A stretch of 64,000 bases of DNA from a virus. Its lineage: Duplodnaviria > Caudoviricetes. Of the stretch, positions 4,534 to 60,871 are shown piece after piece; the stretch's first letter is position 1, and each line of letters opens with the position of its first letter. A model generated the notes under the pieces. The model was not told the origin of the DNA. It searched no databases and saw only the letters and a list, made by a program, of their open reading frames with translations. The translations under genes were made by a program, and so were the position numbers. The DNA lies in the IMG/VR virus record IMGVR_UViG_3300024999_000096, positions 2,162 through 66,161 of that record. One strand, 5' to 3'.

Positions 4534-5862
4534 ATGATGAAAATGTCAAGTTTAAATTATGATGTCGAAAAAAGAGAAATTGGAATTCTAATTGAGCAAA
4601 TCGATAAACAATATTTTACTGTAGGAAAACATCTCCAAAACATTCTTTTAGAAAAGAAACAAGTAAAAAATATTCGTGAGTATATGGAATCTCAAAGGGG
4701 TTATATTTGGGAAGCTTGGAGAGCATCAAATTTAATTCAATCCATCTTATTAAAAAATCCTGTTCCTGAAATAACAGTCTATAGATCAGACAATAAAAGT
4801 CAGTATCGTAAGACACTAGATGGGCAACAACGTATGACTAGTATTTATTTGTTCATTAACAATCATTTTAAACTTGATATGTCTAAAACTATGTTTCCAG
4901 AATTTAAAATTGAGGATGAAATTTTTAAAACAAGTGAAGTATTAACTGGGAAAACCTTCTCAGAACTTCCTGAATTATGGCAAGATATCATTAGAGATTA
5001 TCAACTTCGTATTACAACCATGAATAATTGTACTGAGGAAGATGCTGAAAAAGCATATGTTCAAATGAATTCAGGTGCTAAAGGGCTTAAAGCTTCTGAA
5101 ATCAGAAAGGCAGCTATGGGTATGAATACAAGGAAATTCTTTAGATCAACTTTGGATAGTGATTGGCTTTTACATGCCATGACTCCATTATCAACTAAAG
5201 GTAATGCAGGGGATGAAATTTTATCTCAAATCATCACGATTATACATAATAACAAAGCAATCGAGTTATCGAAAGATAATATCGATAAAGTAATTTACAG
5301 TTTTAGGGATTCAGGATTGCCTGAAGAAATTCAAGAGGATGTTACAAATATATCAATTTATCTTAATCGAGTCACCAATAAGTGGATAAGTGATAAAAAG
5401 AAGGAGGATGAAGCACAAGGAAATAAAAGAGTTAAAAATTATTCAACCTATCGTTATACATGGTTAAATAAAACCCACACAACCATGTTAATGTATTCAG
5501 CCCATAGAGCTATTAAAAATGGTATTGAATTTGAAAAATTTTCAGAATGGGCGTATAAATTCTTTCAATCTCCATCAGTAAAATATAAACAAGGGTTACA
5601 AGACAAAGTTAATGAACTAAAATGTGTTGAATTAAGACTAAGTGCCATTGACGAAGAATTAAGCAAGTTTTATCCAACTGTAGAAATTGATGAACAAATG
5701 GAATCATCCCTACAAACCGAATCTTATGACCATGATATATTAGAAACGTCTCACGAGTTCTTAAATCAAGAAGGTGATGTGTTAGACCAAGAAGAACTTG
5801 ATACAGACAAAGAAGATGCTAAACATATTCTTGATATCATTAACACCACCAATATAGCGTAA
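4534..5862 (+). CDS. DUF262 (GmrSD N-terminal, ParB-like) domain protein
   Basis: QRGYIW, LIQSIL..PVPEI, LDGQQRMTSI and MNSG motifs; acidic tail; no HNH domain seen. Confidence 0.85.
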   Translation: MMKMSSLNYDVEKREIGILIEQIDKQYFTVGKHLQNILLEKKQVKNIREYMESQRGYIWEAWRASNLIQSILLKNPVPEITVYRSDNKSQYRKTLDGQQRMTSIYLFINNHFKLDMSKTMFPEFKIEDEIFKTSEVLTGKTFSELPELWQDIIRDYQLRITTMNNCTEEDAEKAYVQMNSGAKGLKASEIRKAAMGMNTRKFFRSTLDSDWLLHAMTPLSTKGNAGDEILSQIITIIHNNKAIELSKDNIDKVIYSFRDSGLPEEIQEDVTNISIYLNRVTNKWISDKKKEDEAQGNKRVKNYSTYRYTWLNKTHTTMLMYSAHRAIKNGIEFEKFSEWAYKFFQSPSVKYKQGLQDKVNELKCVELRLSAIDEELSKFYPTVEIDEQMESSLQTESYDHDILETSHEFLNQEGDVLDQEELDTDKEDAKHILDIINTTNIA

Positions 5863-5920
5863 AAAGATCAAGAAATATCTTTATATACCATATTTAAAAT
5901 TTAGAGGAGCGTGTATTAAA

Positions 5921-6946
5921 ATGCAAAGAAAACCAATTAAAAAGTCAATGAGTGTAAACCAAATATGTAAAATGATTAAAAGTGGTAAAATTTCTTTTGA
6001 AAATCCTCTACAACGTCCGGCAGGTCAATGGAAGATAGAAGACCAATCTCTTCTTATCGATTCTCTTATAACGATGTGTGTTCCTGATATATTTGCTTTA
6101 AATTATATGGATAAAGATAACAATTATAATCGTATGTTTGACATAATCGACGGAAAACAACGACTGAGTAGTATTGCATCTTATATTGAAAACAAATGGG
6201 CATTAACTAAATTAAACCCAATTCAATTAGAACCAAATGGAGAAATCTATGATATTTCTGGGAAAAAGTTTATGGAATTACCAGAAGATATAAGGGAAGA
6301 AATTAAGGACTATATGTTGGATTTTAAGATAATTGAACTAGAAGGTAATGAAGATGAGAAAAAAGTTGTGAAAGAATTATTTTTACGTTTAAACAACGAG
6401 AAACCAGTATCGCAGGAACATAAAACATTTATAGAAGCTAATTCAAATATACAAGAATTTGTACGAAGAATTATTTTAGAGCATAAACTTTTTAGAGAGA
6501 TATCATATTTCACTCCTTCTAGCATTAAGAAATCAGATAAAGAAATGACAATTATGCAATCAATTATTCTTGTTTCGGGAATTGAATATAAATCATTCAG
6601 AAATAAAGATATCAAAAAGGCATTACTTGAAAATGAGATATCTAAAGAAACATTAGAACTTACTGAAAAACTTTTTGATGATATTGTAAAAATATTTCCT
6701 CAATATCATAGGCAAGTATCTAAAATGAACATACCTATTTTAGTTTACATTCTTTCTAAAATTCTTGAAGAAGATAAAAAACAAACATTTCATTTAATTC
6801 AAAAATATTTTAATGAAGATATGAGAACAGGAGACAAATATAAAAGTTTTTGTATATCTAGCACAGCAAATAAAATCAATGTAATTGGTCGTATAAATAC
6901 ACTTAAAGAAATTTGTGATGTTCAATTGAATCAAGCAGCAAAATAA
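5921..6946 (+). CDS. DUF262 domain protein (paralog)
   Basis: LQRPAGQW, LLIDSL, IIDGKQRLSSI and FLRLNN motifs. Confidence 0.85.
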   Translation: MQRKPIKKSMSVNQICKMIKSGKISFENPLQRPAGQWKIEDQSLLIDSLITMCVPDIFALNYMDKDNNYNRMFDIIDGKQRLSSIASYIENKWALTKLNPIQLEPNGEIYDISGKKFMELPEDIREEIKDYMLDFKIIELEGNEDEKKVVKELFLRLNNEKPVSQEHKTFIEANSNIQEFVRRIILEHKLFREISYFTPSSIKKSDKEMTIMQSIILVSGIEYKSFRNKDIKKALLENEISKETLELTEKLFDDIVKIFPQYHRQVSKMNIPILVYILSKILEEDKKQTFHLIQKYFNEDMRTGDKYKSFCISSTANKINVIGRINTLKEICDVQLNQAAK

Positions 6947-35139: not shown

Positions 35140-36018
35140 ATGATCAGACACATAGGATTTGCTTGCATGAGCAAAAAATGTAATACCAAATATCAAACAT
35201 TCAGACTAGCTTCATTTAGTGAATACCGATTAAAACAAGCAATTACTCACAATCTTAAGGAAACCGAACGTACAATTCAACATTGTATTTCAGAAGGAAT
35301 TAAATTATTTAGATTAAGTTCTGATCTTGTTCCTTTTGCTAGTCATGAAATTATGAAAGATATTGATTATATGTCTTGGATGCAATCAGATTTAAAAAGA
35401 ATTGGAGGTATAGCAAAAAATAATAATATGATATTATCAATGCATCCATCTCAAATGTGTGTATTATCAAGCAATAAAGATGAAGTTGTAAATAATTCTA
35501 TCAAGGATTTAATGTATCATTATGATATTCTCAATGCTATGGGCCTGAGTGAATTCAACATTATTATTCATGTTGGTGGAGTTTATGGTAATAAGCAGGA
35601 AGCAATGCAAAGGTTTGTTAATGTTTTTAAAAGTTTACCTGTGGATTTAAGGAATCATATCTTGCTAGAGAATGATGACAAAAGTTATACGATTAGTGAT
35701 ATAATGGAAATACACAAGGAAAATGGTGTGAGAGTTGTGCTAGATTTGCACCACATGTACTGTAATAATGATGGTACTGAATTAGATTTAGAAGCGATAT
35801 TTGCCACTTGTGGGGCTGGAAAAGTACCTAAGATTCATCTTAGTTCACCAAAGAGTGTTGAAGCGTTCAGAAGCCATTCTGAAATTATTGATTTTGATTA
35901 TTGTAAGGATTTCTTTGAGAAGTATAAGGGATTAGAATTTAATGTAATGATTGAGGCGAAGGATAAGGATTTAGCTGTAGAGAAGTTTATTGAGGATTAT
36001 AGGAGGGAAATTAGATGA
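35140..36018 (+). CDS. uvsE: UV DNA damage endonuclease
   Basis: IGFACM, LFRLSSDLVPFASH, SMHPSQ, IIIHVGG, LENDDK, LDLHH, PKIHLSSP and MIEAKDKD motifs. Confidence 0.95.
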   Translation: MIRHIGFACMSKKCNTKYQTFRLASFSEYRLKQAITHNLKETERTIQHCISEGIKLFRLSSDLVPFASHEIMKDIDYMSWMQSDLKRIGGIAKNNNMILSMHPSQMCVLSSNKDEVVNNSIKDLMYHYDILNAMGLSEFNIIIHVGGVYGNKQEAMQRFVNVFKSLPVDLRNHILLENDDKSYTISDIMEIHKENGVRVVLDLHHMYCNNDGTELDLEAIFATCGAGKVPKIHLSSPKSVEAFRSHSEIIDFDYCKDFFEKYKGLEFNVMIEAKDKDLAVEKFIEDYRREIR

Positions 36019-41439: not shown

Positions 41440-41569
41440 GGTGGTTTGGTTTGAAGGTTGGAAGGAGGAGATTAGAATGTAGAAATAAAAGTTTTTAGTT
41501 AGGTATAGGACAAAATGAAATTGTCTATAATATAATCACAAGGAAATAAAAAGGAGTGTGATTATAGTT

Positions 41570-41956
41570 ATGCAAAGAGGAGAGATATACTTAGCTACAG
41601 TTAAAAATAATATTGGAGGATCAGTGCAAACAATTTGTCAAAGACCAATGATAATTATTTCAAACCATATGAGTTTGTTACATTCACCTGTTATTCACGC
41701 AATTCCGCTATCTAGTAAGGTTTTTAAGAAGTGGATACCCACGCACGTTTCTGTGCCAATGGCTAGTAGTGGGCTATTGAAAGATTCTGTTGCACTTTGC
41801 GAACAGGTGATGCTTCTTCCGAAAGAGGTTTTTAGCAAAAAAATAGGAGTATGCAGTAATTTTGTTATAAATAAATTGGAAGAGGGTTTGATGGTACAGT
41901 TTGGATTGTTTAACCATAATCAAAATTCAAAAAATAATGTTGCGTATGCAAATTAA
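41570..41956 (+). CDS. mazF: MazF/PemK endoribonuclease
   Basis: MQRGEIY...GGSVQ...RPMIIISN...AIPLSSK...PTHV...GLLKDSVALCEQV. Confidence 0.85.
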   Translation: MQRGEIYLATVKNNIGGSVQTICQRPMIIISNHMSLLHSPVIHAIPLSSKVFKKWIPTHVSVPMASSGLLKDSVALCEQVMLLPKEVFSKKIGVCSNFVINKLEEGLMVQFGLFNHNQNSKNNVAYAN

Positions 41957-41977
41957 GAAGGAGAGATATATTAATAA

Positions 41978-42664
41978 ATGGATTTTATAGTCTATTTAAC
42001 TAGAGGAACCTTAAACATATTTAACATCAATGTAAATACAATTAATGAGGTATTTAATAACGAGCATTATTCAAAAATCAACAATTTAATAAAAACACAT
42101 AGAAAAAAAGAAATACAAACTAATGCAGAACATGTTTTTCAGTTAGTAGAAAATGGAATTACTCTTGCTTATAGTGAGATACTTAAATATATAATTGTTT
42201 TATTTATAGCAAAATGTTTGTGTTTAAGTATTTCACTTCCAGTATTCTTTGTCATGACTATTTTCACTATTCTTAGAGCTTCCGCAGGAGGGGTACATTT
42301 ATCTACCTTTAATAAATGTTTTGGGGCAATGATAATATGTTTTCTTTCTTTAGGATGGATAGTAACTCAAATACATATAAACTATTTACATTTAATAATT
42401 GGATATATAATAAGTATATATTTAGCTTATAAATATGCTCCTCAAGAAAGAGAAGATAAATCAGATAAAGATTGTGATAATGGTAATATAAAAAAGTATA
42501 GAAGTATATTGTTTGTTACAGTTTGTTGTTTTTTAAGTATTGTGCTTTTAAATTCACATCAAATAGTTAGTATAAGTGTCTTTTTTGGAATATTGCTCGA
42601 AACATTTACAATTACGCCCATTGGAACTAGATTTTTTAAGTGGATCGATGGAGGACATATATGA
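41978..42664 (+). CDS. agrB: AgrB-family AIP-processing membrane peptidase
   Basis: LRASAGGVHLSTFNKC (catalytic His/Cys motif) and YKYAP; multi-pass membrane protein. Confidence 0.9.
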   Translation: MDFIVYLTRGTLNIFNINVNTINEVFNNEHYSKINNLIKTHRKKEIQTNAEHVFQLVENGITLAYSEILKYIIVLFIAKCLCLSISLPVFFVMTIFTILRASAGGVHLSTFNKCFGAMIICFLSLGWIVTQIHINYLHLIIGYIISIYLAYKYAPQEREDKSDKDCDNGNIKKYRSILFVTVCCFLSIVLLNSHQIVSISVFFGILLETFTITPIGTRFFKWIDGGHI

Positions 42665-43281
42665 TCGAAGTAGTAGTTATTGCTTGTTTGGTTGCAAAAC
42701 TCAAAGGATATAAATGGTCTGAAATATTTAAAGTTTTTAAACATTGGAGTGCTTACTCAATTATATTAACCTGTATACTGAACATATATATTGTGTATTT
42801 GATGATTCACGGAGAATATTGGTTTTTACAATATAGTAGTTGTATAAAAAATGTTACATTTCTATTTTACATATTGTTAATTGTTAAATATAAACTAATT
42901 AATATTTCTGTATTTAAAAATATTAACATAAAAAAGAATGGACAATTAATTACGTCACTTACATCTCCAGTTATTATAGGAGCATTATGTGCAACCGTAG
43001 GATCTAAATTAAATGAATTAGCTATGTTTTATAATAATGGTAAAATGCCTGTATTCCCAAGCAATAGTATCAGTATTGGGTTTTCAAAGATTGATATGTT
43101 TGAAAAAGCGTCAGTATTTAATGATTTTCATATATTGGGGAACTACACGACAAAATTAATATTTTTAACCGATACTTGGGATATTTTTTATGTAATAATG
43201 AGTCCAGGTGATATATTGATAAAGTTATTTGCTGGAATGATTTTATATTATTCAATTAAACAAAGTAAAGTTTTACTATAA
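42661..43281 (+). CDS. DUF5317-family membrane protein
   Basis: LNELAMFYNNGKMPV...LIFLTD...SPGDILI; ATGA overlap with agrB. Confidence 0.75.
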   Translation: MIEVVVIACLVAKLKGYKWSEIFKVFKHWSAYSIILTCILNIYIVYLMIHGEYWFLQYSSCIKNVTFLFYILLIVKYKLINISVFKNINIKKNGQLITSLTSPVIIGALCATVGSKLNELAMFYNNGKMPVFPSNSISIGFSKIDMFEKASVFNDFHILGNYTTKLIFLTDTWDIFYVIMSPGDILIKLFAGMILYYSIKQSKVLL

Positions 43282-43296
43282 ATATAAAAATAATGT

Positions 43297-43325
43297 TTGA
43301 CAATTAGACAAATATGTATTATACT
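43297..43325 (+). promoter_or_regulatory. Sigma-A promoter
   Basis: TTGACA-17-TATACT. Confidence 0.8.
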
Positions 43326-43354
43326 CAATATATAAGGTGAAGGAGGAAATACAT

Positions 43355-44164
43355 ATGAAAGATTTAACTAATATCATTACATGCTTCTTTTTTCTCGCGG
43401 TTCCAGATTTTATCTTTATGGTAATGTTGCTAATAAAATTTATGAATAAAAGAGAATTATTGGATGTTTATAGATTAAAAGAAAATATTAAATGGTATAT
43501 AATTTTGATTATACCACCTTCTCTACTAGTAAGTGTTCTAATTTATGGATTTAAATTTCAAAGAAATATTTCTTCAATAATAAGTTTAATTTTGCTATAC
43601 TTTATTTCAATTTATGTATTTGAAAAGACAAAGATAGAAGAAGTAAAACTTTTAAGAATAAAAATTCTTATAAGATTTATTCCTTTGTATATAAGTCTAA
43701 TAGCAATCGATCTGGCAACTGCACCTGTTTTGTTTTATTTTTTACATTTAGATTTTCAAAAAATTTATAATGATATACATTTACTTTTGATATGTTCTCT
43801 TGCATCAAGAATTATAGAGTTTTCAATTATTACATTTATACTTACATATAAGCAGAGAAAATTTCAGGTTAATTTATTAGAGTATATTTATAAAAATACC
43901 TTTTTTAGAAGATTTGTTATAATTACAATGATCTTATTAATGATATTCGAAATATGCATACTAAAATTGGCTATATATAATAATTTTTTAAATATTTTAA
44001 AATCATTAACAGGACAAATAGTTATTGTTATAGGTTTTATTTATCTGATACCTTCCATTGTTATAATAGGTTTATATTTAATAATAAATCATTGTGTTTC
44101 TCTTCTAAATAGTGTGAAGCAGACTTCTAATCTACCTTCTAATGAAGATGATATGTCTGTTTAG
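43355..44164 (+). CDS. Multi-pass membrane protein, candidate AIP receptor (AgrC-like sensor module without kinase)
   Basis: About 7 TM segments; immediately upstream of agrD; no HisKA/HATPase motifs. Confidence 0.55.
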   Translation: MKDLTNIITCFFFLAVPDFIFMVMLLIKFMNKRELLDVYRLKENIKWYIILIIPPSLLVSVLIYGFKFQRNISSIISLILLYFISIYVFEKTKIEEVKLLRIKILIRFIPLYISLIAIDLATAPVLFYFLHLDFQKIYNDIHLLLICSLASRIIEFSIITFILTYKQRKFQVNLLEYIYKNTFFRRFVIITMILLMIFEICILKLAIYNNFLNILKSLTGQIVIVIGFIYLIPSIVIIGLYLIINHCVSLLNSVKQTSNLPSNEDDMSV

Positions 44165-44195
44165 CAAATAATTATTAAGTAAGGAGGTGAAAAAT

Positions 44196-44315
44196 ATGAA
44201 AAATAAAGTATTAGCAAGTGGTTTGGTAATTATTGCTTCTATTGCTGTATATGCAGCAACCATGCCTTGTCTGGCTGCATGGCATCAACCAAAAACCCCT
44301 AAGTGTATCGCGTAA
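44196..44315 (+). CDS. agrD: AgrD cyclic autoinducing peptide precursor (not in ORF track)
   Basis: RBS AAGGAGGTG; MKNKVLASGLVIIASIAVYAATMPCLAAWHQPKTPKCIA has an amphipathic leader plus C-x4-HQPxxP as in clostridial AgrD. Confidence 0.9.
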   Translation: MKNKVLASGLVIIASIAVYAATMPCLAAWHQPKTPKCIA

Positions 44316-44332
44316 TACATACCCAATCATCT

Positions 44333-44361
44333 AAGGAGGGAGTTTTATACTCTCTCCTTTT
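44333..44361 (+). terminator. Rho-independent terminator after agrD
   Basis: AAGGAGGGAGT-tttat-ACTCTCTCCTT-TT. Confidence 0.75.
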
Positions 44362-44389
44362 GAATTATAAAATAATTTTAAATACCCTA

Positions 44390-44418
44390 TTGACATATTT
44401 GCCACCACAATGTATTAT
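44390..44418 (+). promoter_or_regulatory. Sigma-A promoter
   Basis: TTGACA-17-TATTAT. Confidence 0.75.
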
Positions 44419-44483
44419 AGTAGTATAAAGTAAGAATTCAAAAAATTTATATTTACTTAATAAAGAAAGGTGGATGAATTAAT

Positions 44484-45296
44484 ATGTTTTTTAATGCAAA
44501 GAAGAAGATCGAGGTAGTTAAATCAAATGAGGTAAAGGATTTTAAGAAGCTTTCAAATCTAGTGAAGATCGCAGTAGGGCATAATACTATTAAAGAATTT
44601 GCAGGTCGTTGTGGAATCCCTAATTATTTCGAAAGTATATTAGGAATCATAAACGAAAAAATAACTACATACCCAGAACTTTGGCTCCTTCAAAAAATTT
44701 CTAATGGATCAGAATTGCGAGTATCCTTTGATGAATTAAGAATTGCTTGTGGTTATAGTTTGAATGATGGAGATGTTAATTTAAAAGATATAAAACCATT
44801 TTGGGGAGGAATCTATTGGTGCGACTTCAAAAATTACGTCGATAGTGTCACTGGAGGCATACATCCTGCCGTAATCACGCAGAACAATATAGGAAATGAC
44901 AGGGCCACGATCACTTGGGCTGTGCCTTTGACTAGTAAAATAAGTAAGAATTTTCAACCTACTCATATAAAAATTTCTAAAAATTGTGGATTGGAAAAAG
45001 ATTCTGAAATTATTATAGAGCAAATGAGAGTTATTACGAAACGCGATCTATTAATTGATGGGCATGTTAATTTTATTTGTGAATGCCCAGAAGACATTAT
45101 GCGTCAAGTGTCGATTGGCATTATGAAACAGGCAGGAATGGTGCATGCCAAAGCTAAAGAGTCTACAGTGAGCAGATTTTTAGATAAACTTAATGAATAT
45201 GTTAATAAAGAGGAAGAAAGTCGTCTCAACCGCATCAGAAGCAATAACTTTAATACAGCAATTCCTCAATCCCAAAGAGTTGCATCTTTAGCATGA
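44484..45296 (+). CDS. XRE-HTH-like plus MazF/PemK fusion protein
   Basis: N-terminal TIKEFAGRCGI...LLQKIS...VSFDELRIACGY; C-terminal GIYWCDF...GGIHPAVITQN...VPLTSK...PTHI...EQMRVI. Confidence 0.75.
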   Translation: MFFNAKKKIEVVKSNEVKDFKKLSNLVKIAVGHNTIKEFAGRCGIPNYFESILGIINEKITTYPELWLLQKISNGSELRVSFDELRIACGYSLNDGDVNLKDIKPFWGGIYWCDFKNYVDSVTGGIHPAVITQNNIGNDRATITWAVPLTSKISKNFQPTHIKISKNCGLEKDSEIIIEQMRVITKRDLLIDGHVNFICECPEDIMRQVSIGIMKQAGMVHAKAKESTVSRFLDKLNEYVNKEEESRLNRIRSNNFNTAIPQSQRVASLA

Positions 45297-45396
45297 AAAT
45301 AAAATAGATGGTCATTATATCACTTACTAATTATTGTCACAATTGTTGTAATGACCATCTCTACACAACAAATAAAATTAGAAAGAGGAGTATTTA

Positions 45397-46207
45397 TATG
45401 CAAACACTATCCCTTTCCCATATCCTCCTAAACACAATCTTCACATCGCTCCCAGAAGAAGGATTCGTCGCAATAATAACATTAATCTTCCTAAAACTAA
45501 ATAATCTCCTAGACATCTACATGTGGAATAAAAGCCTAAAATGGATTGCATTAGCTGTACTTCCAGTATCCATAATGATAAATATCCTTCGTTACATAAT
45601 TATAGTACCAAAGCAAAATATGATGATTTCAACTATGATTATCATGATTTTACTCATGGAATTTATAGTCCTAAACAATAGTTTCAATATAACTATTTCC
45701 CTAATACTAAAAACAGCAATATTCACAATCGCAGGATTTGTCATTGTAGGGCTAGTAGAATTATCATATTGTCCTCTTATATTATCAATAGTGGATAAAC
45801 CAATCTCATTTTTCAATGACAATGTTTTCTATAATTTTCTATTAGGTATCCCTGCGAGAGTATTATATTTATGTGTAATTTCGTTTGTTGTAATGAGAAG
45901 AAATAATTCAGTTCATGTTAATTTATTCAATTCCATATTTAAAAACAAATTCTTTATGTGTAGTCTTATAACAATAGTATTGGCTAGGATATCTGCAATT
46001 GTATATATTGCAAAATTAGTAAACAATAATCATATTTTATTCAATCTACAAATTGTGGATCAATTAATAATTATGGTTGTAACAATGTCCATTCCAGTAA
46101 TATTAGTTACTTGGTTATTAATGTTTGTAAATAATCTATTGTGTAAGGAAGAAATTAAATTTCAAAATTATGAGAATATGGTTAATTCAAGTGGAAAGGT
46201 AGTATAA
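45397..46207 (+). CDS. Second multi-pass membrane protein, probable paralog of 43355-44164
   Basis: Shared pattern (SLPEEGF/AVPDFIF; LLDIY/LLDVY; KW; VNLFNSIFKNKFF/VNLLEYIYKNTFF); no kinase domain. Confidence 0.65.
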
Positions 46208-46227
46208 CTAAATATATAAAATAATAT

Positions 46228-46377
46228 TTGACATAGCATTACCCAAAATGCTATAATCATAAATAGAAACATAAATAATAAAAGTAATCAGGCATTCTTC
46301 TTGACGTATCGGCATATTATATATTATAATAGCATTGCGTATTATTAACCAATACATAGCAACATAACTTGTTGCTG
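46228..46377 (+). promoter_or_regulatory. Tandem promoters with operator-like inverted repeats
   Basis: TTGACA-18-TATAAT containing ATAGCATT-N6-AATGCTAT; TTGACG-18-TATAAT; AGCAACA-N5-TGTTGCT. Confidence 0.65.
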
Positions 46378-46403
46378 ATATGTCAAAAGGAGGAATAAAT
46401 ATT

Positions 46404-47759
46404 ATGAAACAAGATCGTCAAATTCTTGAGGATATTCTTAATTTAGTCATTGAAGATTATGCTAATGACAATCAAATTCAAGAGCAGGTTGTAGGTAAAT
46501 TATTAGAAAGAGGTATCCCAAGGGGTAGAACTACAGGTATATTCACTAAAGCAATTCCTTTAGTCTATGTTGAAGAAATTGAACTATGTTTATTTACAAA
46601 ATACCTTTATGGTTATACTCACCGAACAGAAATAAATCCAGATGAGTTCTTTACAGAGATTGAATTGTCTTCTGCTGATTATTACAAAAAACTTGATAAA
46701 GAAAAGGTTAAATACATTTTACTTCATAATGTTGATCAAATAGATGATAGTCAGTGGTTATGTACAAAAGAAACTTATCAAAATATTAATCTTTATATGG
46801 GTAATGGATTATTGACATATAATCCAAACACTCAAAGACAACTCTTAAAAAGACGAAGTGGAAACAGAATTGTTGAATCTATTAATATTGACAGTAAGAA
46901 AGTATCAGAAATTACAGAGTCAATGATAGATGGTTCTTTTTGTACTAATGCTATTATGTGGAACATTCGTAAAATAAATGGGCAAGAAAAGTTTAAGTAT
47001 GATCTTAAAACTAGAACGTTATTAATTGAACCTGATAACATGTCTACTCTGGTTGACATAATTGATGGTGCGAATCGCACTTGTGGTATGTTAAAAACTG
47101 TTGAAACTAAAAATGATATAGATCGAGTAACATCAATTTATATTCACCACGTTACTGAAGAGCGTGCCAATGAAATAATTCGACAAGAAAGCAAAAGTAC
47201 GCAAATTGAAACTGAATGGGTTGATTTTAAAAATACAGCTAATCCAAATATGGAAGTAGCAAAAGCTATTAATTCTAGGCAAAGGGCAAATGAAATGTTT
47301 AATCGCATAGCCTTAAATGAAAAGGAATTGATTGTCGAAAGCAAATTCATGACATTTGATACTTTGTCAAAATCTATTGAATTTCTTTATGATCTTAAAG
47401 AGGAACCAGTTATCAGAACGTCACAAGTTGAAGATGATATTGTAGAGATATTTAATAATGTTATTGGTATTTATTACTCAAAATTCAAAGCAGAATTATC
47501 TAATACCAAAGAAACTTCATATCTTGCACATAATAACATGTTTATGGGGTATATTATTTTAGGAGATTTATTAAAGCAAAAGTATGGCGATGACTGGAAA
47601 CCTGAATTAGTAAAAGTATTAAACTCTTTAGACTTTGATAAATCAAATAAAATTTGGAAGAAAATTGGAATCGAAAACCATGTAAATTTATCTACATTCA
47701 AAAAGATTTCTGATTATTTTAAAGATGTTGTTTATCAACATGAGAAGGAGGTATCATAA
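46404..47759 (+). CDS. DndB/DGQHR-like protein, SPbeta YopQ(SroE)-like
   Basis: LTYNPNTQR...IIDGANR; about 450 aa; translationally coupled to an integrase-like gene. Confidence 0.65.
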   Translation: MKQDRQILEDILNLVIEDYANDNQIQEQVVGKLLERGIPRGRTTGIFTKAIPLVYVEEIELCLFTKYLYGYTHRTEINPDEFFTEIELSSADYYKKLDKEKVKYILLHNVDQIDDSQWLCTKETYQNINLYMGNGLLTYNPNTQRQLLKRRSGNRIVESINIDSKKVSEITESMIDGSFCTNAIMWNIRKINGQEKFKYDLKTRTLLIEPDNMSTLVDIIDGANRTCGMLKTVETKNDIDRVTSIYIHHVTEERANEIIRQESKSTQIETEWVDFKNTANPNMEVAKAINSRQRANEMFNRIALNEKELIVESKFMTFDTLSKSIEFLYDLKEEPVIRTSQVEDDIVEIFNNVIGIYYSKFKAELSNTKETSYLAHNNMFMGYIILGDLLKQKYGDDWKPELVKVLNSLDFDKSNKIWKKIGIENHVNLSTFKKISDYFKDVVYQHEKEVS

Positions 47760-57876: not shown

Positions 57877-59835
57877 ATGAGTAATGTAGATCGAATTAAA
57901 GAGTTAGTAACACAACTTAATATAGCCTGTAACGCCTATTACAACCTGAATAAACCTATTATGGAGAATAGAGAATACAATCTACTCTTTGATGAATTAG
58001 AGTCCTTAGAACAGAAATCAGGAGTAATTATGAGTGATTCACCTACACGCAGAGCTGGATATCCTGTAGTGTCAGATTTACCAAAAGTTAAACATGAAAT
58101 TCCATTGTTGTCTTTAGGAAAAGTCAAAGAAATCCCTAAACTAGTAAAATGGTTGGGAGATAAACAAGGTGTATTAATGTTAAAGATGGATGGAGGTACT
58201 GGGGCTGTACATTATAAAAAGGAATTTAAACAATTAGTTACTAGGGGTGATTCTGAAACAAATATTGGTGAAGATATTTCTCATAATGTACATAGCATAA
58301 AAAATATTCCACTAAATATTGATGATAATGATGATATCATAATTGTTGGTGAGAATTTCATGAAATATTCTTCATTCAATGAAATTAACTCAAAAATATT
58401 AAATCAAGATGATAAATATGCAAATCCAAGGAATTTAGCAAATGGTTCTACTGGTTTGTTAAACAGCAAAATATGTAAAGAACGTAATATAGAATTTTGT
58501 GCATTTAATATTATCAAAGGAAATAAATTCAAAACAAAACAAGAACAATTAGAATGGTTAAAATCACAAGGTTTCTATGTCGTTCAATATTGGATGGTTA
58601 CAAAAAGCAATCTTGAAGAAACAATGAATCAAATTATAGAAAATATTCCCAACCTTGATTTCCCAATTGACGGCCTAGTTTTATCGTTTAATGATATAGA
58701 ATATGGATTATCTTTAGGCCAAGTTGCTCACCATCCAAAGCATTCTGTTTCATTTAAATTCGAGGATTCATGGTTTAAGACGAAATATTTATACACAGAA
58801 TGGAATACAAGTAGGTTCGGTAAAATCATAGGCACAGGAATATTTCAACCTGTCAACATTGAAGGTTCAGAAGTTGAGAGAGCAACAACACATAACTTAA
58901 ATAGATTTTGGGATTTAAAACTTGGAAAGGATGATATCATTGAAATAACGAAGAGAAACAAAATTATCCCTGCTATTGAGAATAATATTACCAGAAGTAA
59001 TACAGAACAATTGCCTACAAAATGTCCTACGTGTGGTGGTGATGTAGAAGTTAGATTAGTTGTAAAAACTCATGATTTATTTTGTCTTAATCATGATTGT
59101 GAAGCTAAATTAACACAAAAACTCAAGCATTTTGTGAGTAAACAATGTTTTAATATTGATGATCTTGGCGAAGCAACTTTGGAAATGTTCATTGATAAAG
59201 GGTTTGTTGAAAATTATATGGATATCTTCAAATTAGAAAAACATAAGAAAGAATTAGTGAAGCTTAGTGGATTTGGGGTTAAATCTTTCAACAACTTAAT
59301 GACTGCTTTAGAAAAATCAAAGCAGATAAGTATGACTTCACTGATTGCTTCCCTTGGTATAAAGAATGTAGGATTTGGATCATCAAAGAGACTTGCTAAA
59401 CATTTTAATAATGACATTGATTTATTCTTAAAAGCAACAAAATCCTATATGAACTTTGTAAATATTAATGATTTTGGAGATATTACTGCAACTTCAATTT
59501 ATGAATATTTCCAAAATGAAGAGAATATGAATATGTTTTTGGAATTATTGGAATATGTGAATATTATTAAAGAAGAAAAGAAGGAAATGTTGAATGTGGA
59601 AGAAAATCCGTTTCTAGGAATGCATGTGTACCCATCTGGAGTCTTTTCAATGAAGAAGGCAGAATTGAAAATCAAACTTGAAGAAATTGGAGCAATTGTA
59701 GAAAGTGGCTATAAAAAGAGTTTAGATATGTTAATTTGCGGCGGTGATATGAGTAAGTCGGGTAAAGCTTTAAAAGCTGAGAAAGACGGAGTAAAAATGG
59801 TTTCTGAGGAATTTCTCATGCAATATTTAAAGTAA
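57877..59835 (+). CDS. ligA: NAD-dependent DNA ligase
   Basis: KMDG, TRGD..GEDI, NPRN, DGLV, Zn finger CPTC...C...C, HhH and BRCT. Confidence 0.95.
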   Translation: MSNVDRIKELVTQLNIACNAYYNLNKPIMENREYNLLFDELESLEQKSGVIMSDSPTRRAGYPVVSDLPKVKHEIPLLSLGKVKEIPKLVKWLGDKQGVLMLKMDGGTGAVHYKKEFKQLVTRGDSETNIGEDISHNVHSIKNIPLNIDDNDDIIIVGENFMKYSSFNEINSKILNQDDKYANPRNLANGSTGLLNSKICKERNIEFCAFNIIKGNKFKTKQEQLEWLKSQGFYVVQYWMVTKSNLEETMNQIIENIPNLDFPIDGLVLSFNDIEYGLSLGQVAHHPKHSVSFKFEDSWFKTKYLYTEWNTSRFGKIIGTGIFQPVNIEGSEVERATTHNLNRFWDLKLGKDDIIEITKRNKIIPAIENNITRSNTEQLPTKCPTCGGDVEVRLVVKTHDLFCLNHDCEAKLTQKLKHFVSKQCFNIDDLGEATLEMFIDKGFVENYMDIFKLEKHKKELVKLSGFGVKSFNNLMTALEKSKQISMTSLIASLGIKNVGFGSSKRLAKHFNNDIDLFLKATKSYMNFVNINDFGDITATSIYEYFQNEENMNMFLELLEYVNIIKEEKKEMLNVEENPFLGMHVYPSGVFSMKKAELKIKLEEIGAIVESGYKKSLDMLICGGDMSKSGKALKAEKDGVKMVSEEFLMQYLK

Positions 59836-60097: not shown

Positions 60098-60871
60098 ATG
60101 AAGGGTGCAATTTTAGGAGATATTATTGGTTCAAAATTTGAATTCAGTAAACTTCGTTATAATAAATCAGAAGATTTTCAATTACTTTCAAAAGGATGTA
60201 CTTTTACAGATGATACAGTTATGACAATTGCAACAGCAGATGCTATTCTTAATAATATTGATTTTGCTAAAAGTTATCATATGTGGGGAAGTTTATATCC
60301 AGATAGAGGATACGGATGCAATTTTGCTAGTTGGTTATCTAATAAAAGTTATGAACCATATAATAGTTATGGAAATGGTTCTGCTATGAGGGTTAGTCCT
60401 GTAGGTTGGTTGTATAATGATTTAGAGACTGTTTTTGCAAAAGCGGAAGAATCTGCAAGTGTTAGTCATAATCATCCAGAAGGAATTAAAGGAGCAATGG
60501 CAGTTGCAGGTTGTATATATCTTGCTAGATATCAAACGCCAAAAAAGATTATTAAAGAAATGATTGAAACATATTTTGAGTATAATTTAAATAAAACAAT
60601 TGCAGAAATTCGTCCCACTTATGATTTCGATGAAACATGTCAAGGAAGTGTACCAGAATCTATTATTTGTTTTCTTGAAGGAAATAGTTATGAAGATGTA
60701 GTAAGAAAGGCAGTAAGTCTTGGAGGAGATACAGATACTCAAGGATGTATAGCAGGGAGTATTGCAGAAGCATTTTATGGTATGCCTGATAAATTGGTTA
60801 TTAAACTTGATGATTATTTACCAGAAAATATGTTGGACATAGTTGATCAATTTAATAAAACGGTCAAATAA
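60098..60871 (+). CDS. ADP-ribosylglycohydrolase (DraG/ARH family)
   Basis: GAILGDIIGS, FTDDT, SYGNGSAMRVSP, SHNHPEG and GGDTDT motifs. Confidence 0.95.
   Translation: MKGAILGDIIGSKFEFSKLRYNKSEDFQLLSKGCTFTDDTVMTIATADAILNNIDFAKSYHMWGSLYPDRGYGCNFASWLSNKSYEPYNSYGNGSAMRVSPVGWLYNDLETVFAKAEESASVSHNHPEGIKGAMAVAGCIYLARYQTPKKIIKEMIETYFEYNLNKTIAEIRPTYDFDETCQGSVPESIICFLEGNSYEDVVRKAVSLGGDTDTQGCIAGSIAEAFYGMPDKLVIKLDDYLPENMLDIVDQFNKTVK

What the first reader, a model, noticed from the sequence alone, without database searches (positions are those of the whole stretch)
44196..44315. Unannotated AgrD with predicted AIP ring C-L-A-A-W
A 39-aa ORF below the track cutoff, with a perfect RBS and a downstream terminator. 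The sequence ...ATMP-CLAAW-HQPKTPK matches the clostridial layout (compare C. perfringens CLWFT-HQP). This predicts a five-residue thiolactone (or S-to-N shifted) cyclo-CLAAW. It may be a phage-private signal or an interferer of host agr.
Basis: partly seen in the sequence, partly recalled or inferred. Interest (0 to 1): 0.8.

Follow-up and report, generated by a model that had tools for sequence, protein, structure and literature searches.

The report
Phage agr signal with kinase-less receptor
The small gene is a real precursor of a cyclic quorum-sensing peptide carried by a large phage of clostridium-like bacteria, and it sits beside a receptor-like membrane protein that lacks the usual kinase and changes in step with the peptide, which points to a private phage signalling channel that works without the textbook phosphorelay.

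Summary
The 39-codon ORF at 44196-44315 is real and is an AgrD precursor. It scores above the curated NCBIfam AgrD cutoff. It has a strong ribosome-binding site, a conserved terminator hairpin and an AgrB gene upstream. Its leader and tail are under purifying selection. It lies in a seven-gene cassette found in every related phage contig that reaches far enough: small MazF, AgrB, DUF5317, MemA, AgrD, N-domain::MazF, MemB. A 178-kb relative rated complete has no histidine kinase, receiver or LytTR gene. MemA and MemB belong to an unnamed family of seven-helix membrane proteins. Profile comparison shows this family is homologous to the sensor domain of AgrC-type kinases, but it has no kinase part. 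In Clostridia genomes, 16 of 25 loci of this family have an AgrD-like gene directly downstream. Twenty-nine unique phage loci carry 20 different rings (Cys or Ser type). MemA identity falls from 92% to 52% as rings diverge, while AgrB stays near 84%. Best reading: a phage-private, pherotype-diversified agr signal sensed by a kinase-less receptor, with output unknown. Earlier notes of this scan record kinase-less agr cassettes on other phages, and my literature searches found no description of them.

The parts
41558..41956 (+). Small MazF/PemK-like protein (132 aa), the first gene of the conserved cassette
   Evidence: PF02452 E 2.8e-14. Present upstream of AgrB in the related loci.
41978..42664 (+). 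AgrB (228 aa), the AgrD-processing membrane peptidase/cyclase
   Evidence: PF04647 E 2.3e-22, 79.7 bits against a cutoff of 23. His107 and Cys114, 7 residues apart, are invariant in the three phage AgrBs. Their catalytic role is recalled from S. aureus AgrB.
42661..43281 (+). DUF5317 membrane protein (206 aa counted from the ATG shared with relatives). Its start overlaps the AgrB stop.
   Evidence: PF17248 E 8e-12. Present between AgrB and MemA in all 29 unique loci. Function unknown.
43297..43325 (+). Promoter-like site TTGACA-17-TATACT upstream of MemA-agrD
   Evidence: 11 of 12 consensus matches. The scan found no more sites than shuffles do (44 against 41.3), so this is a consensus match only.
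43355..44164 (+). MemA: seven-helix membrane protein (269 aa from the ATG used by relatives; the ORF is open from a GTG at 43337). Kinase-less homologue of the AgrC sensor domain and candidate cognate receptor.
   Evidence: No Pfam, NCBIfam or PHROG family. AF2 pLDDT 92.4. hhalign against AgrC-type kinase sensor domains: 73.9% unselected, 97.9% with a subset. Co-varies with the ring.
44183..44189 (+). Ribosome-binding site GGAGGTG
   Evidence: Read from the sequence.
44196..44315 (+). agrD: leader residues 1-24, predicted ring C25-L-A-A-W29, follower H30-QPKTPKCIA
   Evidence: TIGR04223 27.4 bits against a cutoff of 19. Relatives. pN/pS is 0.40 for the leader, 1.12 for the ring and 0.59 for the tail.
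44333..44359 (+). Terminator-like hairpin after agrD
   Evidence: dG -17.4, z -3.4. Conserved in 29 of 29 unique loci.
44390..44418 (+). Promoter-like site TTGACA-17-TATTAT ahead of the MazF fusion gene
   Evidence: 11 of 12 consensus matches; a consensus match only.
44484..45296 (+). N-domain::MazF fusion (270 aa): unknown N-terminal domain of about 105 aa, a PemK/MazF domain and a conserved C-terminal helical tail
   Evidence: PF02452 E 2e-16 at residues 108-214. PHROG 1936. The family has 35 clusters, all 257-272 aa.
45398..46207 (+). MemB: paralogue of MemA (269 aa from the ATG used by relatives; the ORF is open from 45308)
   Evidence: BLASTP against MemA: E 1e-10, 21% identity over 253 residues. 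Does not co-vary with the ring.

Best explanation
The ORF is a functional agrD gene of a large phage (relatives reach 178 kb) that infects low-GC, clostridium-like bacteria.

Inferred from family knowledge: the 39-aa propeptide inserts into the membrane by its hydrophobic leader. The phage's own AgrB recognises the conserved follower HQPKTPKCIA, removes it, and closes a five-residue ring between Cys25 and the carboxyl of Trp29 (CLAAW). An unidentified protease then removes the leader. If the cut falls directly before Cys, as in the clostridial peptides studied so far, the thiolactone should rearrange to the all-amide cyclo(CLAAW).

Shown here by homology and co-variation: the phage has no AgrC kinase and no AgrA. 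The gene immediately upstream of agrD, MemA, is a seven-helix protein homologous to the membrane sensor domain of AgrC-type kinases, but it ends after the last helix. MemA is the hypervariable partner of the ring across 20 pherotypes, while AgrB stays constant.

My reading: MemA is the cognate receptor of a phage-private signal. The way its signal is passed on is unknown and does not use phosphotransfer by any phage-encoded kinase. Candidate partners are the paralogue MemB and the adjacent N-domain::MazF protein.
For: AgrD identity. TIGR04223 scores above its cutoff. An independent HMM built from bacterial peptides finds only this frame among 1669. There is an RBS and a conserved hairpin. AgrB lies upstream with an invariant His/Cys pair. 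Crude pN/pS over 45 pairs of 10 Cys-type genes is 0.40 for the leader, 0.59 for the tail and 1.12 for the ring.

Cassette. The same gene order is seen in the 178-kb and 54-kb viral records and in the 46 metagenome loci, as far as each contig reaches.

No phosphorelay. LytTR, HATPase_c_5, HATPase_c and Response_reg were not found at E <= 0.1 in the window's record, in the relative rated 100% complete, or in a third record.

MemA family. It has 189 cluster representatives at E <= 1e-3, and the best 150 are all 326 aa or shorter. No family recurred among 73 members scanned against Pfam: six families hit one member each. It is homologous to the N-terminal membrane domain of HATPase_c_5 kinases. 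Against all 27 kinases taken, hhalign gives probability 73.9%, E 2.8e-5, score 41.2 over 144 collinear columns. Controls score lower: 22.1 and 23.5 for the reversed profiles, at most 25.7 in 20 block shuffles, 0.8% against AgrB and 0.5% against DUF5317. Against a subset of 10 kinases it gives 97.9%, E 4e-13 over 154 columns. Five of those 10 kinase genes lie next to agrB. ESM Atlas look-alike clusters are named 'putative sensory transduction protein kinase' and 'Regulator' (a lead only).

Genetic coupling in bacteria. The family is found in 16 of 399 Clostridia genomes. An AgrD-like ORF lies directly downstream in 16 of 25 loci.

Co-diversification. There are 20 rings in 29 unique loci. Among pairs whose AgrB is at least 80% identical, MemA identity is 91.8, 74.4, 55.9 and 52.3% for 0, 1, 2 and 3 ring differences (8, 11, 29 and 25 pairs). 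Over the same classes AgrB is 84.5, 84.8, 84.6 and 83.5%. The N-domain of the MazF fusion, equally close to agrD on the other side, falls only from 84.5 to 72.0%. The most variable MemA segment is loop 4, residues 135-146 (entropy 0.95). The positive-inside rule applied to the model's helices places this loop outside the cell.
Against: No expression or peptide data exist: no RNA run holds the region.

MemA abuts agrD, so some co-variation must come from linkage. DUF5317, which lies between AgrB and MemA, also declines (89 to 66%). The pairs are not phylogenetically independent.

The 97.9% hhalign figure uses kinases that I selected by their single-sequence scores. The unselected figure is 73.9%.

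Co-variation would also be expected of a processing or export factor that handles the ring.

In canonical operons the gene directly upstream of agrD is the enzyme, not the receptor.

MemA has only a tail of about 25 cytoplasmic residues, and no output partner has been shown.

Structure searches gave no informative match.

Ring size and the N-terminal cut are assumed from other species.
Confidence: 0.6

Rival explanations
1. MemA is a biosynthetic, export or self-protection factor for the peptide rather than a receptor. For example, it could remove the leader or move the ring across the membrane. The signal would then be read by host proteins.
For: MemA occupies the position directly upstream of agrD and is tightly coupled to it, where enzymes usually sit. 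In a Clostridiaceae MAG the MemA-AgrD pair stands 33 kb from the only AgrB. The leader protease of clostridial agr systems is unknown. In S. aureus it is a membrane protease, MroQ (PMC9388083; search listing and start of abstract only). Co-variation with the ring would fit a factor that handles the ring.
Against: The family is homologous to kinase sensor domains and not to AgrB (0.8%) or DUF5317 (0.5%). Only one Pro and one acidic residue are nearly invariant among 73 members, so there is no catalytic constellation. The variable hot spot is an outward-facing loop. AgrB is always present in the phage cassette.
Confidence: 0.2
2. The main role of the phage peptide is cross-talk with the host: activating or blocking a host AgrC or VirS-type kinase. 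MemA and MemB would act as decoys, or as dominant-negative partners of the host kinase.
For: The phage encodes no kinase or regulator. Clostridia genomes that carry the Mem family hold 5-7 HATPase_c_5 kinase genes each. The follower motif HQPKTPKC is shared with an AgrD-like peptide of a Clostridiaceae MAG. phiCDHM1 set the precedent of phage agr genes without a regulator (PMC3901668, passages).
Against: Twenty ring alleles tightly matched to MemA alleles within one phage clade look like private pherotypes, not mimicry of one host signal. The host and its AgrD are unknown, so mimicry could not be tested.
Confidence: 0.15
3. The ORF is not translated, or it is a decayed remnant with no function.
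For: No RNA or protein data are available.
Against: The RBS, the conserved terminator, purifying selection on leader and tail, conservation of the frame in 29 of 29 unique loci, and the HMM hit all argue against it.
Confidence: 0.02

Closest known systems
Staphylococcus aureus agrBDCA (canonical agr quorum sensing)
   Same: An AgrB peptidase/cyclase and an AgrD precursor made of leader, five-residue ring and Pro-containing follower. A hypervariable block couples the peptide to a polytopic sensor domain, giving specificity groups. The staphylococcal details are recalled.
   Different: No DHp or ATPase domain on the sensor, and no AgrA. The gene order is B-DUF5317-sensor-D. AgrB is not part of the hypervariable block. 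MazF-type genes flank the module. The element is a phage.
agr3 locus of Clostridioides difficile phage phiCDHM1 (agrC-agrB-agrD)
   Same: A phage-borne agrB and agrD with no response regulator (PMC3901668, passages).
   Different: [quoted passage not shown] There is no detectable similarity: tblastn of the phage AgrB and of MemA against 50,697 phage records gave no match at E <= 1e-3. The phage here is about three times larger.
Clostridium perfringens agr operon (CPE1563-CPE1562-agrB-agrD, sensed by VirS/VirR)
   Same: The clostridial AgrD layout, with the ring followed by H-Q-P-x-x-P. agrBD is co-transcribed with two genes for hypothetical proteins (PMC2706048, passages).
   Different: I could not fetch CPE1563 or CPE1562, so whether they are DUF5317 or Mem homologues is untested. 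VirS is a full kinase (recalled).
Clostridium thermocellum orphan AgrD Clo1313_2818 (Ser-lactone pentapeptide)
   Same: A Ser-type five-residue ring followed by Y-Q-P, shown by mass spectrometry, with no agr operon beside it (PMC5322536, passages). This resembles the bacterial Mem-AgrD pairs L019 and L027 and the Ser-type phage alleles.
   Different: I did not see its neighbouring genes, so a Mem-family neighbour is a prediction and not a result.
Arbitrium (AimP/AimR) phage peptide communication
   Same: It works in a similar way: a phage-encoded secreted peptide with many phage-specific variants, each paired with its own receptor (recalled).
   Different: Arbitrium uses a linear hexapeptide imported into the cell and a cytoplasmic TPR receptor. 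Here the signal is an AgrB-made cyclic peptide and the receptor a membrane protein. A lysis-lysogeny role is not shown here.

Membership tests
AgrD (NCBIfam TIGR04223, cyclic lactone autoinducer peptide) | Profile score above the curated cutoff | tested here: met
   27.4 bits against a cutoff of 19, E 2.7e-6, residues 4-37.
AgrD (NCBIfam TIGR04223, cyclic lactone autoinducer peptide) | Ring-forming Cys or Ser placed five residues before the follower | tested here: met
   C25-LAAW-H30QP. All 29 unique relatives have Cys (10 loci, 6 rings) or Ser (19 loci, 14 rings) at this position.
AgrD (NCBIfam TIGR04223, cyclic lactone autoinducer peptide) | C-terminal follower with a conserved proline motif (P-X-X-P, where AgrB binds; PMC3901668) | tested here: met
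   Q31-P32-K-T-P35. Q31, P32, T34 and P35 are invariant in the 6-sequence alignment.
AgrD (NCBIfam TIGR04223, cyclic lactone autoinducer peptide) | Partner AgrB in the same locus with the catalytic His and Cys | tested here: met
   PF04647 at 79.7 bits. H107 and C114 are invariant. Their catalytic role is recalled.
AgrD (NCBIfam TIGR04223, cyclic lactone autoinducer peptide) | A cyclic (thio)lactone or lactam product is made and secreted | not testable with these tools
   Needs expression and mass spectrometry.
AgrC / HPK10 receptor histidine kinases (tested for MemA and MemB) | Polytopic N-terminal sensor domain of the AgrC type | tested here: met
   hhalign gives 73.9% (E 2.8e-5) against 27 kinases and 97.9% (E 4e-13) against a chosen subset of 10. 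Controls give at most 5.9% probability.
AgrC / HPK10 receptor histidine kinases (tested for MemA and MemB) | Cytoplasmic DHp and HATPase_c_5 kinase module | tested here: not met
   The proteins end about 25 residues after helix 7. There is no Pfam hit. The family's best 150 members are all 326 aa or shorter. No HATPase_c_5 or HATPase_c match was found in three phage records.
Canonical agr system (agrBDCA) | AgrA response regulator (receiver plus LytTR) | tested here: not met
   No LytTR or Response_reg match at E <= 0.1 in G000, in G001 (178 kb, rated 100% complete) or in G002.
MazF/PemK endoribonuclease toxins (41558-41956 and 44484-45296) | PemK/MazF domain above the Pfam cutoff | tested here: met
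   53.7 and 60.5 bits against a cutoff of 23.1.
MazF/PemK endoribonuclease toxins (41558-41956 and 44484-45296) | Cognate MazE-type antitoxin gene adjacent | not tested
   No antitoxin family appeared among the neighbours scanned. The N- and C-terminal extensions of the fusion were not tested as an in-cis antitoxin.

The most novel reading that the evidence does not exclude
The cassette is a phosphorelay-free agr pathway. A variable, kinase-less AgrC-like receptor (MemA) senses the phage's own cyclic peptide. Possibly together with the conserved paralogue MemB, it then gates the adjacent N-domain::MazF endoribonuclease by direct protein contact. A phage population of at least 20 pherotypes would thus use peptide density to switch host RNA cleavage, growth arrest or its own lysis-lysogeny choice. 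The same receptor-peptide pair, with XRE regulators in place of MazF, would be an overlooked signalling module of Clostridia. It could explain 'orphan' AgrD peptides such as that of C. thermocellum.
Probability: 0.2. Interest if true: 0.9.

Novelty: new variant of a known kind. Interest (0 to 1): 0.72.

Why it matters
The only published phage agr locus I found is that of phiCDHM1. That locus has a normal kinase, and no function has been shown for it.

Here a whole clade of large environmental phages carries an agr module with three unusual properties:

- The receptor has lost the kinase.
- The peptide and receptor have diversified into at least 20 matched alleles.
- The module is always flanked by MazF-type toxin genes.

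This is a natural data set of receptor-ligand specificity pairs, including natural mosaics such as L075. It also makes a concrete question testable: how can an AgrC-type sensor signal without phosphotransfer?

The same sensor-peptide pair occurs in Clostridia genomes, often with no AgrC or AgrB beside it. It offers a candidate partner for clostridial AgrD peptides whose receptor is unknown.

Tried and rejected
- **Complex prediction (MemB with N-domain::MazF).** The job never ran, so there is no result.
- **Structure searches with the pLDDT 92.4 MemA model.** Foldseek against the PDB gave nothing at E <= 0.001. VIA-align wide gave a best Z of 7.8, within the range common for helical models. 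A profile search of PDB sequences gave 0 hits at E <= 1. None of this says the fold is new.
- **First AF2 run.** With 6 sequences the model was poor (pLDDT 53.5).
- **DUF5317 as an LspA-like leader peptidase.** hhalign gave 0.6%, so I rejected it.
- **DUF5317 as the membrane anchor of a c-di-GMP enzyme.** This was a recollection, also prompted by earlier scan notes. The word-based search for longer forms found none (weak evidence). In 300 Clostridia genomes, 59 carry DUF5317, mostly in frames of about 170-255 aa, with 10 places in frames of 454-633 aa. The three long proteins I fetched show only DUF5317 at E <= 1e-4. The idea is not supported.
- **N-domain of the MazF fusion as an XRE helix-turn-helix.** There was no Pfam hit at E <= 1. 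BLASTP against the bacterial XRE neighbours gave E >= 0.17. hhalign gave 6.6%. The ESM Atlas score was 0.75. The resemblance is one of pattern only.
- **DNA and protein searches of phage and plasmid collections.** No match.
- **RNA evidence.** No RNA holder was listed, and read laying was not used.
- **The search for related loci with the broad Mem alignments.** Relatives cannot be drawn for a virus record.
- **Literature.** 'DUF5317' gave 0 papers. Searches on agrC, sensor domain and kinase domain, and on phage-encoded AgrD, gave listings in which no title or abstract describes a kinase-less AgrC-like family. I judged these at listing level, apart from the passages cited in the report. Supplements such as the AgrD tables of PMC8251862 were not opened.

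Full report
**1. The observation**

An ATG at 44196 opens a frame that ends with the stop at 44313-44315 and encodes MKNKVLASGLVIIASIAVYAATMPCLAAWHQPKTPKCIA. GGAGGTG lies 6 nt upstream of the ATG.

An 11-bp hairpin at 44333-44359, followed by UUUU, folds at -17.4 kcal/mol (z -3.4). The strict terminator scan did not list it. A comparable hairpin (-14 to -24 kcal/mol) follows agrD in 29 of 29 unique related loci, and the stem sequences change while pairing is kept.

NCBIfam's AgrD model scores 27.4 bits against a cutoff of 19. Pfam has no hit. As an independent test I built an HMM from 16 bacterial AgrD-like peptides only. Among the window's 1669 stop-to-stop frames of at least 20 aa it finds this frame alone (E 1.2e-4; the next best is 0.82). 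The same 39-aa protein already exists, unnamed, in public protein collections.

**2. The setting**

The window lies in a 66-kb viral record rated 44% complete. It has 28% GC and genes on one strand. Phage-type genes include a NAD-dependent ligase, a C5 methyltransferase, a GIY-YIG endonuclease, an anti-repressor and integrases.

Around agrD the genes run in this order:
- small MazF (41558-41956)
- AgrB (41978-42664)
- DUF5317 (42661-43281)
- MemA, a 269-aa membrane protein (43355-44164)
- agrD
- a 270-aa protein with an unknown N-domain fused to MazF (44484-45296)
- MemB, a paralogue of MemA (45398-46207)

The same order is found in a 178-kb viral record rated 100% complete and in a 54-kb record. 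It is also found in 46 metagenome loci retrieved with an AgrB alignment, as far as each contig reaches.

None of the three viral records has a LytTR, HATPase_c_5, HATPase_c or Response_reg match at E <= 0.1. Each has exactly two Mem genes.

**3. The peptide family**

Thirty-six loci hold AgrB, MemA and AgrD, and 29 of them are unique. Each has a hydrophobic leader, a Cys or Ser, four variable residues ending in Trp or Phe, and a conserved follower (H/N/Y)Q(P/S)xx(P/D)xC(I/V)(A/S).

There are 20 different rings. Six are Cys-type, among them CLAAW, CFAVW, CFAAW, CLAVF, CFAVF and CTFAW. Fourteen are Ser-type, such as SAFLW, SFALW and SLAVW.

In the 10 Cys-type genes a crude count over 45 pairs gives pN/pS of 0.40 for the leader, 0.59 for the follower and 1.12 for the ring. 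The frame is therefore constrained as a protein, while the ring is free or driven to change.

The AgrB has the family domain and an invariant His and Cys seven residues apart. That spacing matches the catalytic pair of S. aureus AgrB as I recall it.

The five-residue ring is an inference from this layout. Clostridial AIPs characterised so far have five- or six-membered rings, lack an N-terminal tail and rearrange to lactams (PMC8251862, passages and section 10). A Ser-lactone pentapeptide followed by Y-Q-P is proven in C. thermocellum (PMC5322536, passages). The N-terminal cut site here is unknown.

**4. What MemA is**

MemA and MemB match no Pfam, NCBIfam or PHROG family. A profile of six phage copies finds 189 cluster representatives at E <= 1e-3 among 1.84 billion. 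The best 150 are all 326 aa or shorter. Of 73 members scanned against Pfam, six families hit one member each and none recurs.

With the 73-sequence alignment, AlphaFold gives a confident model (pLDDT 92.4) with seven long helices. K/R-rich loops 1, 3 and 5 put the N-terminus outside and the short C-tail inside. No informative structural neighbour was found.

I took the N-terminal membrane domains of 27 HATPase_c_5 kinases from five Clostridia genomes that also carry the Mem family. Compared with that unselected set, the Mem profile gives probability 73.9%, E 2.8e-5 and score 41.2 over 144 collinear columns.

Controls score lower:
- 22.1 and 23.5 for reversed profiles
- at most 25.7 in 20 block shuffles
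- 19.0 against AgrB (0.8%)
- 16.8 against DUF5317 (0.5%)

Ten of the 27 kinases carry the signal. A profile of those ten gives 97.9%, E 4e-13 over 154 columns, and 0.1% when reversed. This subset was chosen by score, so the unselected figure is the conservative one. Five of the ten kinase genes lie beside agrB, so they are agr-locus kinases. ESM Atlas look-alike clusters carry the automatic names 'putative sensory transduction protein kinase' and 'Regulator' (a lead only).

I conclude that the Mem family is a stand-alone homologue of the AgrC-type sensor domain that lacks the kinase.

**5. Genetic coupling outside phages**

In a sample of 399 Clostridia genomes, 16 carry the family, at 25 places.

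- Sixteen of the 25 loci have an AgrD-like ORF directly downstream of the Mem gene, often overlapping it or within 40 nt.
- Four full-length loci have none (L011, L012, L013, L015).
- Five are weak or truncated matches.

I scanned 47 of the 93 flanking ORFs of at least 90 aa. AgrB is adjacent in 6 loci, an XRE-type HTH protein in 7 and a LytTR protein in 1. In one Clostridiaceae MAG the Mem-AgrD pair lies 33 kb from the genome's only AgrB.

**6. Co-diversification**

Between the window and the 178-kb relative the identities are:

| Protein | Identity |
|---|---|
| AgrB | 87% |
| DUF5317 | 95% |
| MemA | 67% |
| AgrD | 90% (both ring changes fall in CLAAW versus CFAVW) |

Across the 29 unique loci I took the pairs whose AgrB is at least 80% identical and grouped them by the number of ring differences:

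| Ring differences | 0 | 1 | 2 | 3 |
|---|---|---|---|---|
| Pairs | 8 | 11 | 29 | 25 |
| MemA identity (%) | 91.8 | 74.4 | 55.9 | 52.3 |
| AgrB identity (%) | 84.5 | 84.8 | 84.6 | 83.5 |
| MemB identity (%) | 66 | 75 | 77 | 71 |

- MemB shows no trend.
- The N-domain of the MazF fusion lies as close to agrD as MemA does, on the other side. It falls only from 84.5 to 72.0%.
- Both halves of MemA fall alike.
- DUF5317 also falls (89 to 66%), so some linkage effect exists.
- The pairs are not independent.

The most variable MemA segment is the outward-facing loop 4. Locus L075 is a natural mosaic. Its MemA N-half matches CLAAW-type alleles and its C-half matches the CFAVF and CLAVF types. Its ring, CFAVF, follows the C-half.

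**7. Mechanism**

Shown:
- a constrained agrD with its AgrB
- no phage kinase or regulator
- a kinase-less AgrC-type sensor homologue that is the hypervariable partner of the ring
- the same sensor-peptide pairing in bacteria

Inferred:
- AgrB makes cyclo-CLAAW.
- MemA binds it from outside the cell.
- The channel is private to each pherotype.

Unknown: the output. The constant neighbours MemB and N-domain::MazF are candidates. In bacteria the usual neighbour is an XRE regulator. I could not test contacts because the complex-prediction queue was full throughout.

**8. Comparison and novelty**

AgrD itself is a new member of a known family. Phage-borne agr is known from phiCDHM1, which has a full kinase (PMC3901668, passages). 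Neither the phage AgrB nor MemA finds any match among 50,697 phage records.

My literature searches found no description of a kinase-less AgrC-like family or of this cassette (listing level, plus the passages cited).

Earlier notes of this scan describe kinase-less agr cassettes on Paenibacillus and Brevibacillus phages and a variant with a phosphodiesterase. Those are unchecked AI notes on other DNA. They agree in kind and were not tested here. They appeared after I had reached my reading, and they prompted only the DUF5317 checks, which came out negative.

I class the finding as a new variant of a known kind.

Noticed in passing
window 44304-44306 (Cys37 of AgrD) and related loci: The follower ends in a conserved Cys two residues from the C-terminus (xC(I/V)(A/S)) in 28 of 29 unique loci. 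L087 is the exception. Several bacterial Mem-linked peptides also have PKC at this place. I have no explanation for a conserved Cys in a part that AgrB discards.
   Followed up: no
window 41558-41956 and 44484-45296: Two MazF/PemK-type genes always flank the agr module, and no recognisable antitoxin gene was seen. The fusion form makes a tight family of 35 clusters, all 257-272 aa, seen on contigs up to 175 kb.
   Followed up: partly
window 46380-48763: A DndB-like protein (phrog_5732, E 7e-60) is directly followed by an MrpR-like recombinase. The pair looks like a plasmid-type maintenance or resolution module, so the phage may persist as a plasmid prophage.
   Followed up: no
L089:5883-9693: One related locus carries three Mem-family copies instead of two.
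   Followed up: no
L008, L009, L014, L015, L016, L017, L029: Bacterial Mem-AgrD pairs commonly have an XRE-type HTH gene next to them, convergent with the pair in most of these loci. The forms of about 200 aa seem to carry a second, degenerate HTH-like repeat. These are candidate output regulators of the kinase-less sensor.
   Followed up: partly
window 4534-6946: Two adjacent paralogous genes have a GmrSD_N (DUF262-type) domain, which suggests a defence or anti-defence function.
   Followed up: no
window 35140-36018, 57877-59835, 60098-60871: The phage carries a UvdE UV-damage endonuclease, a full NAD-dependent DNA ligase and an ADP-ribosylglycohydrolase.
   Followed up: no
window 1-64000: No tRNA gene was found in 64 kb. 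Almost all plausible genes are on the + strand, and GC skew is positive throughout.
   Followed up: no
window 41500-46300: The only public runs holding half or more of the sampled words of this stretch are three DNA runs, all labelled groundwater metagenome and all from one study. A fourth groundwater run of that study holds 0.49 of the words. The best holders may be the window's own source.
   Followed up: no
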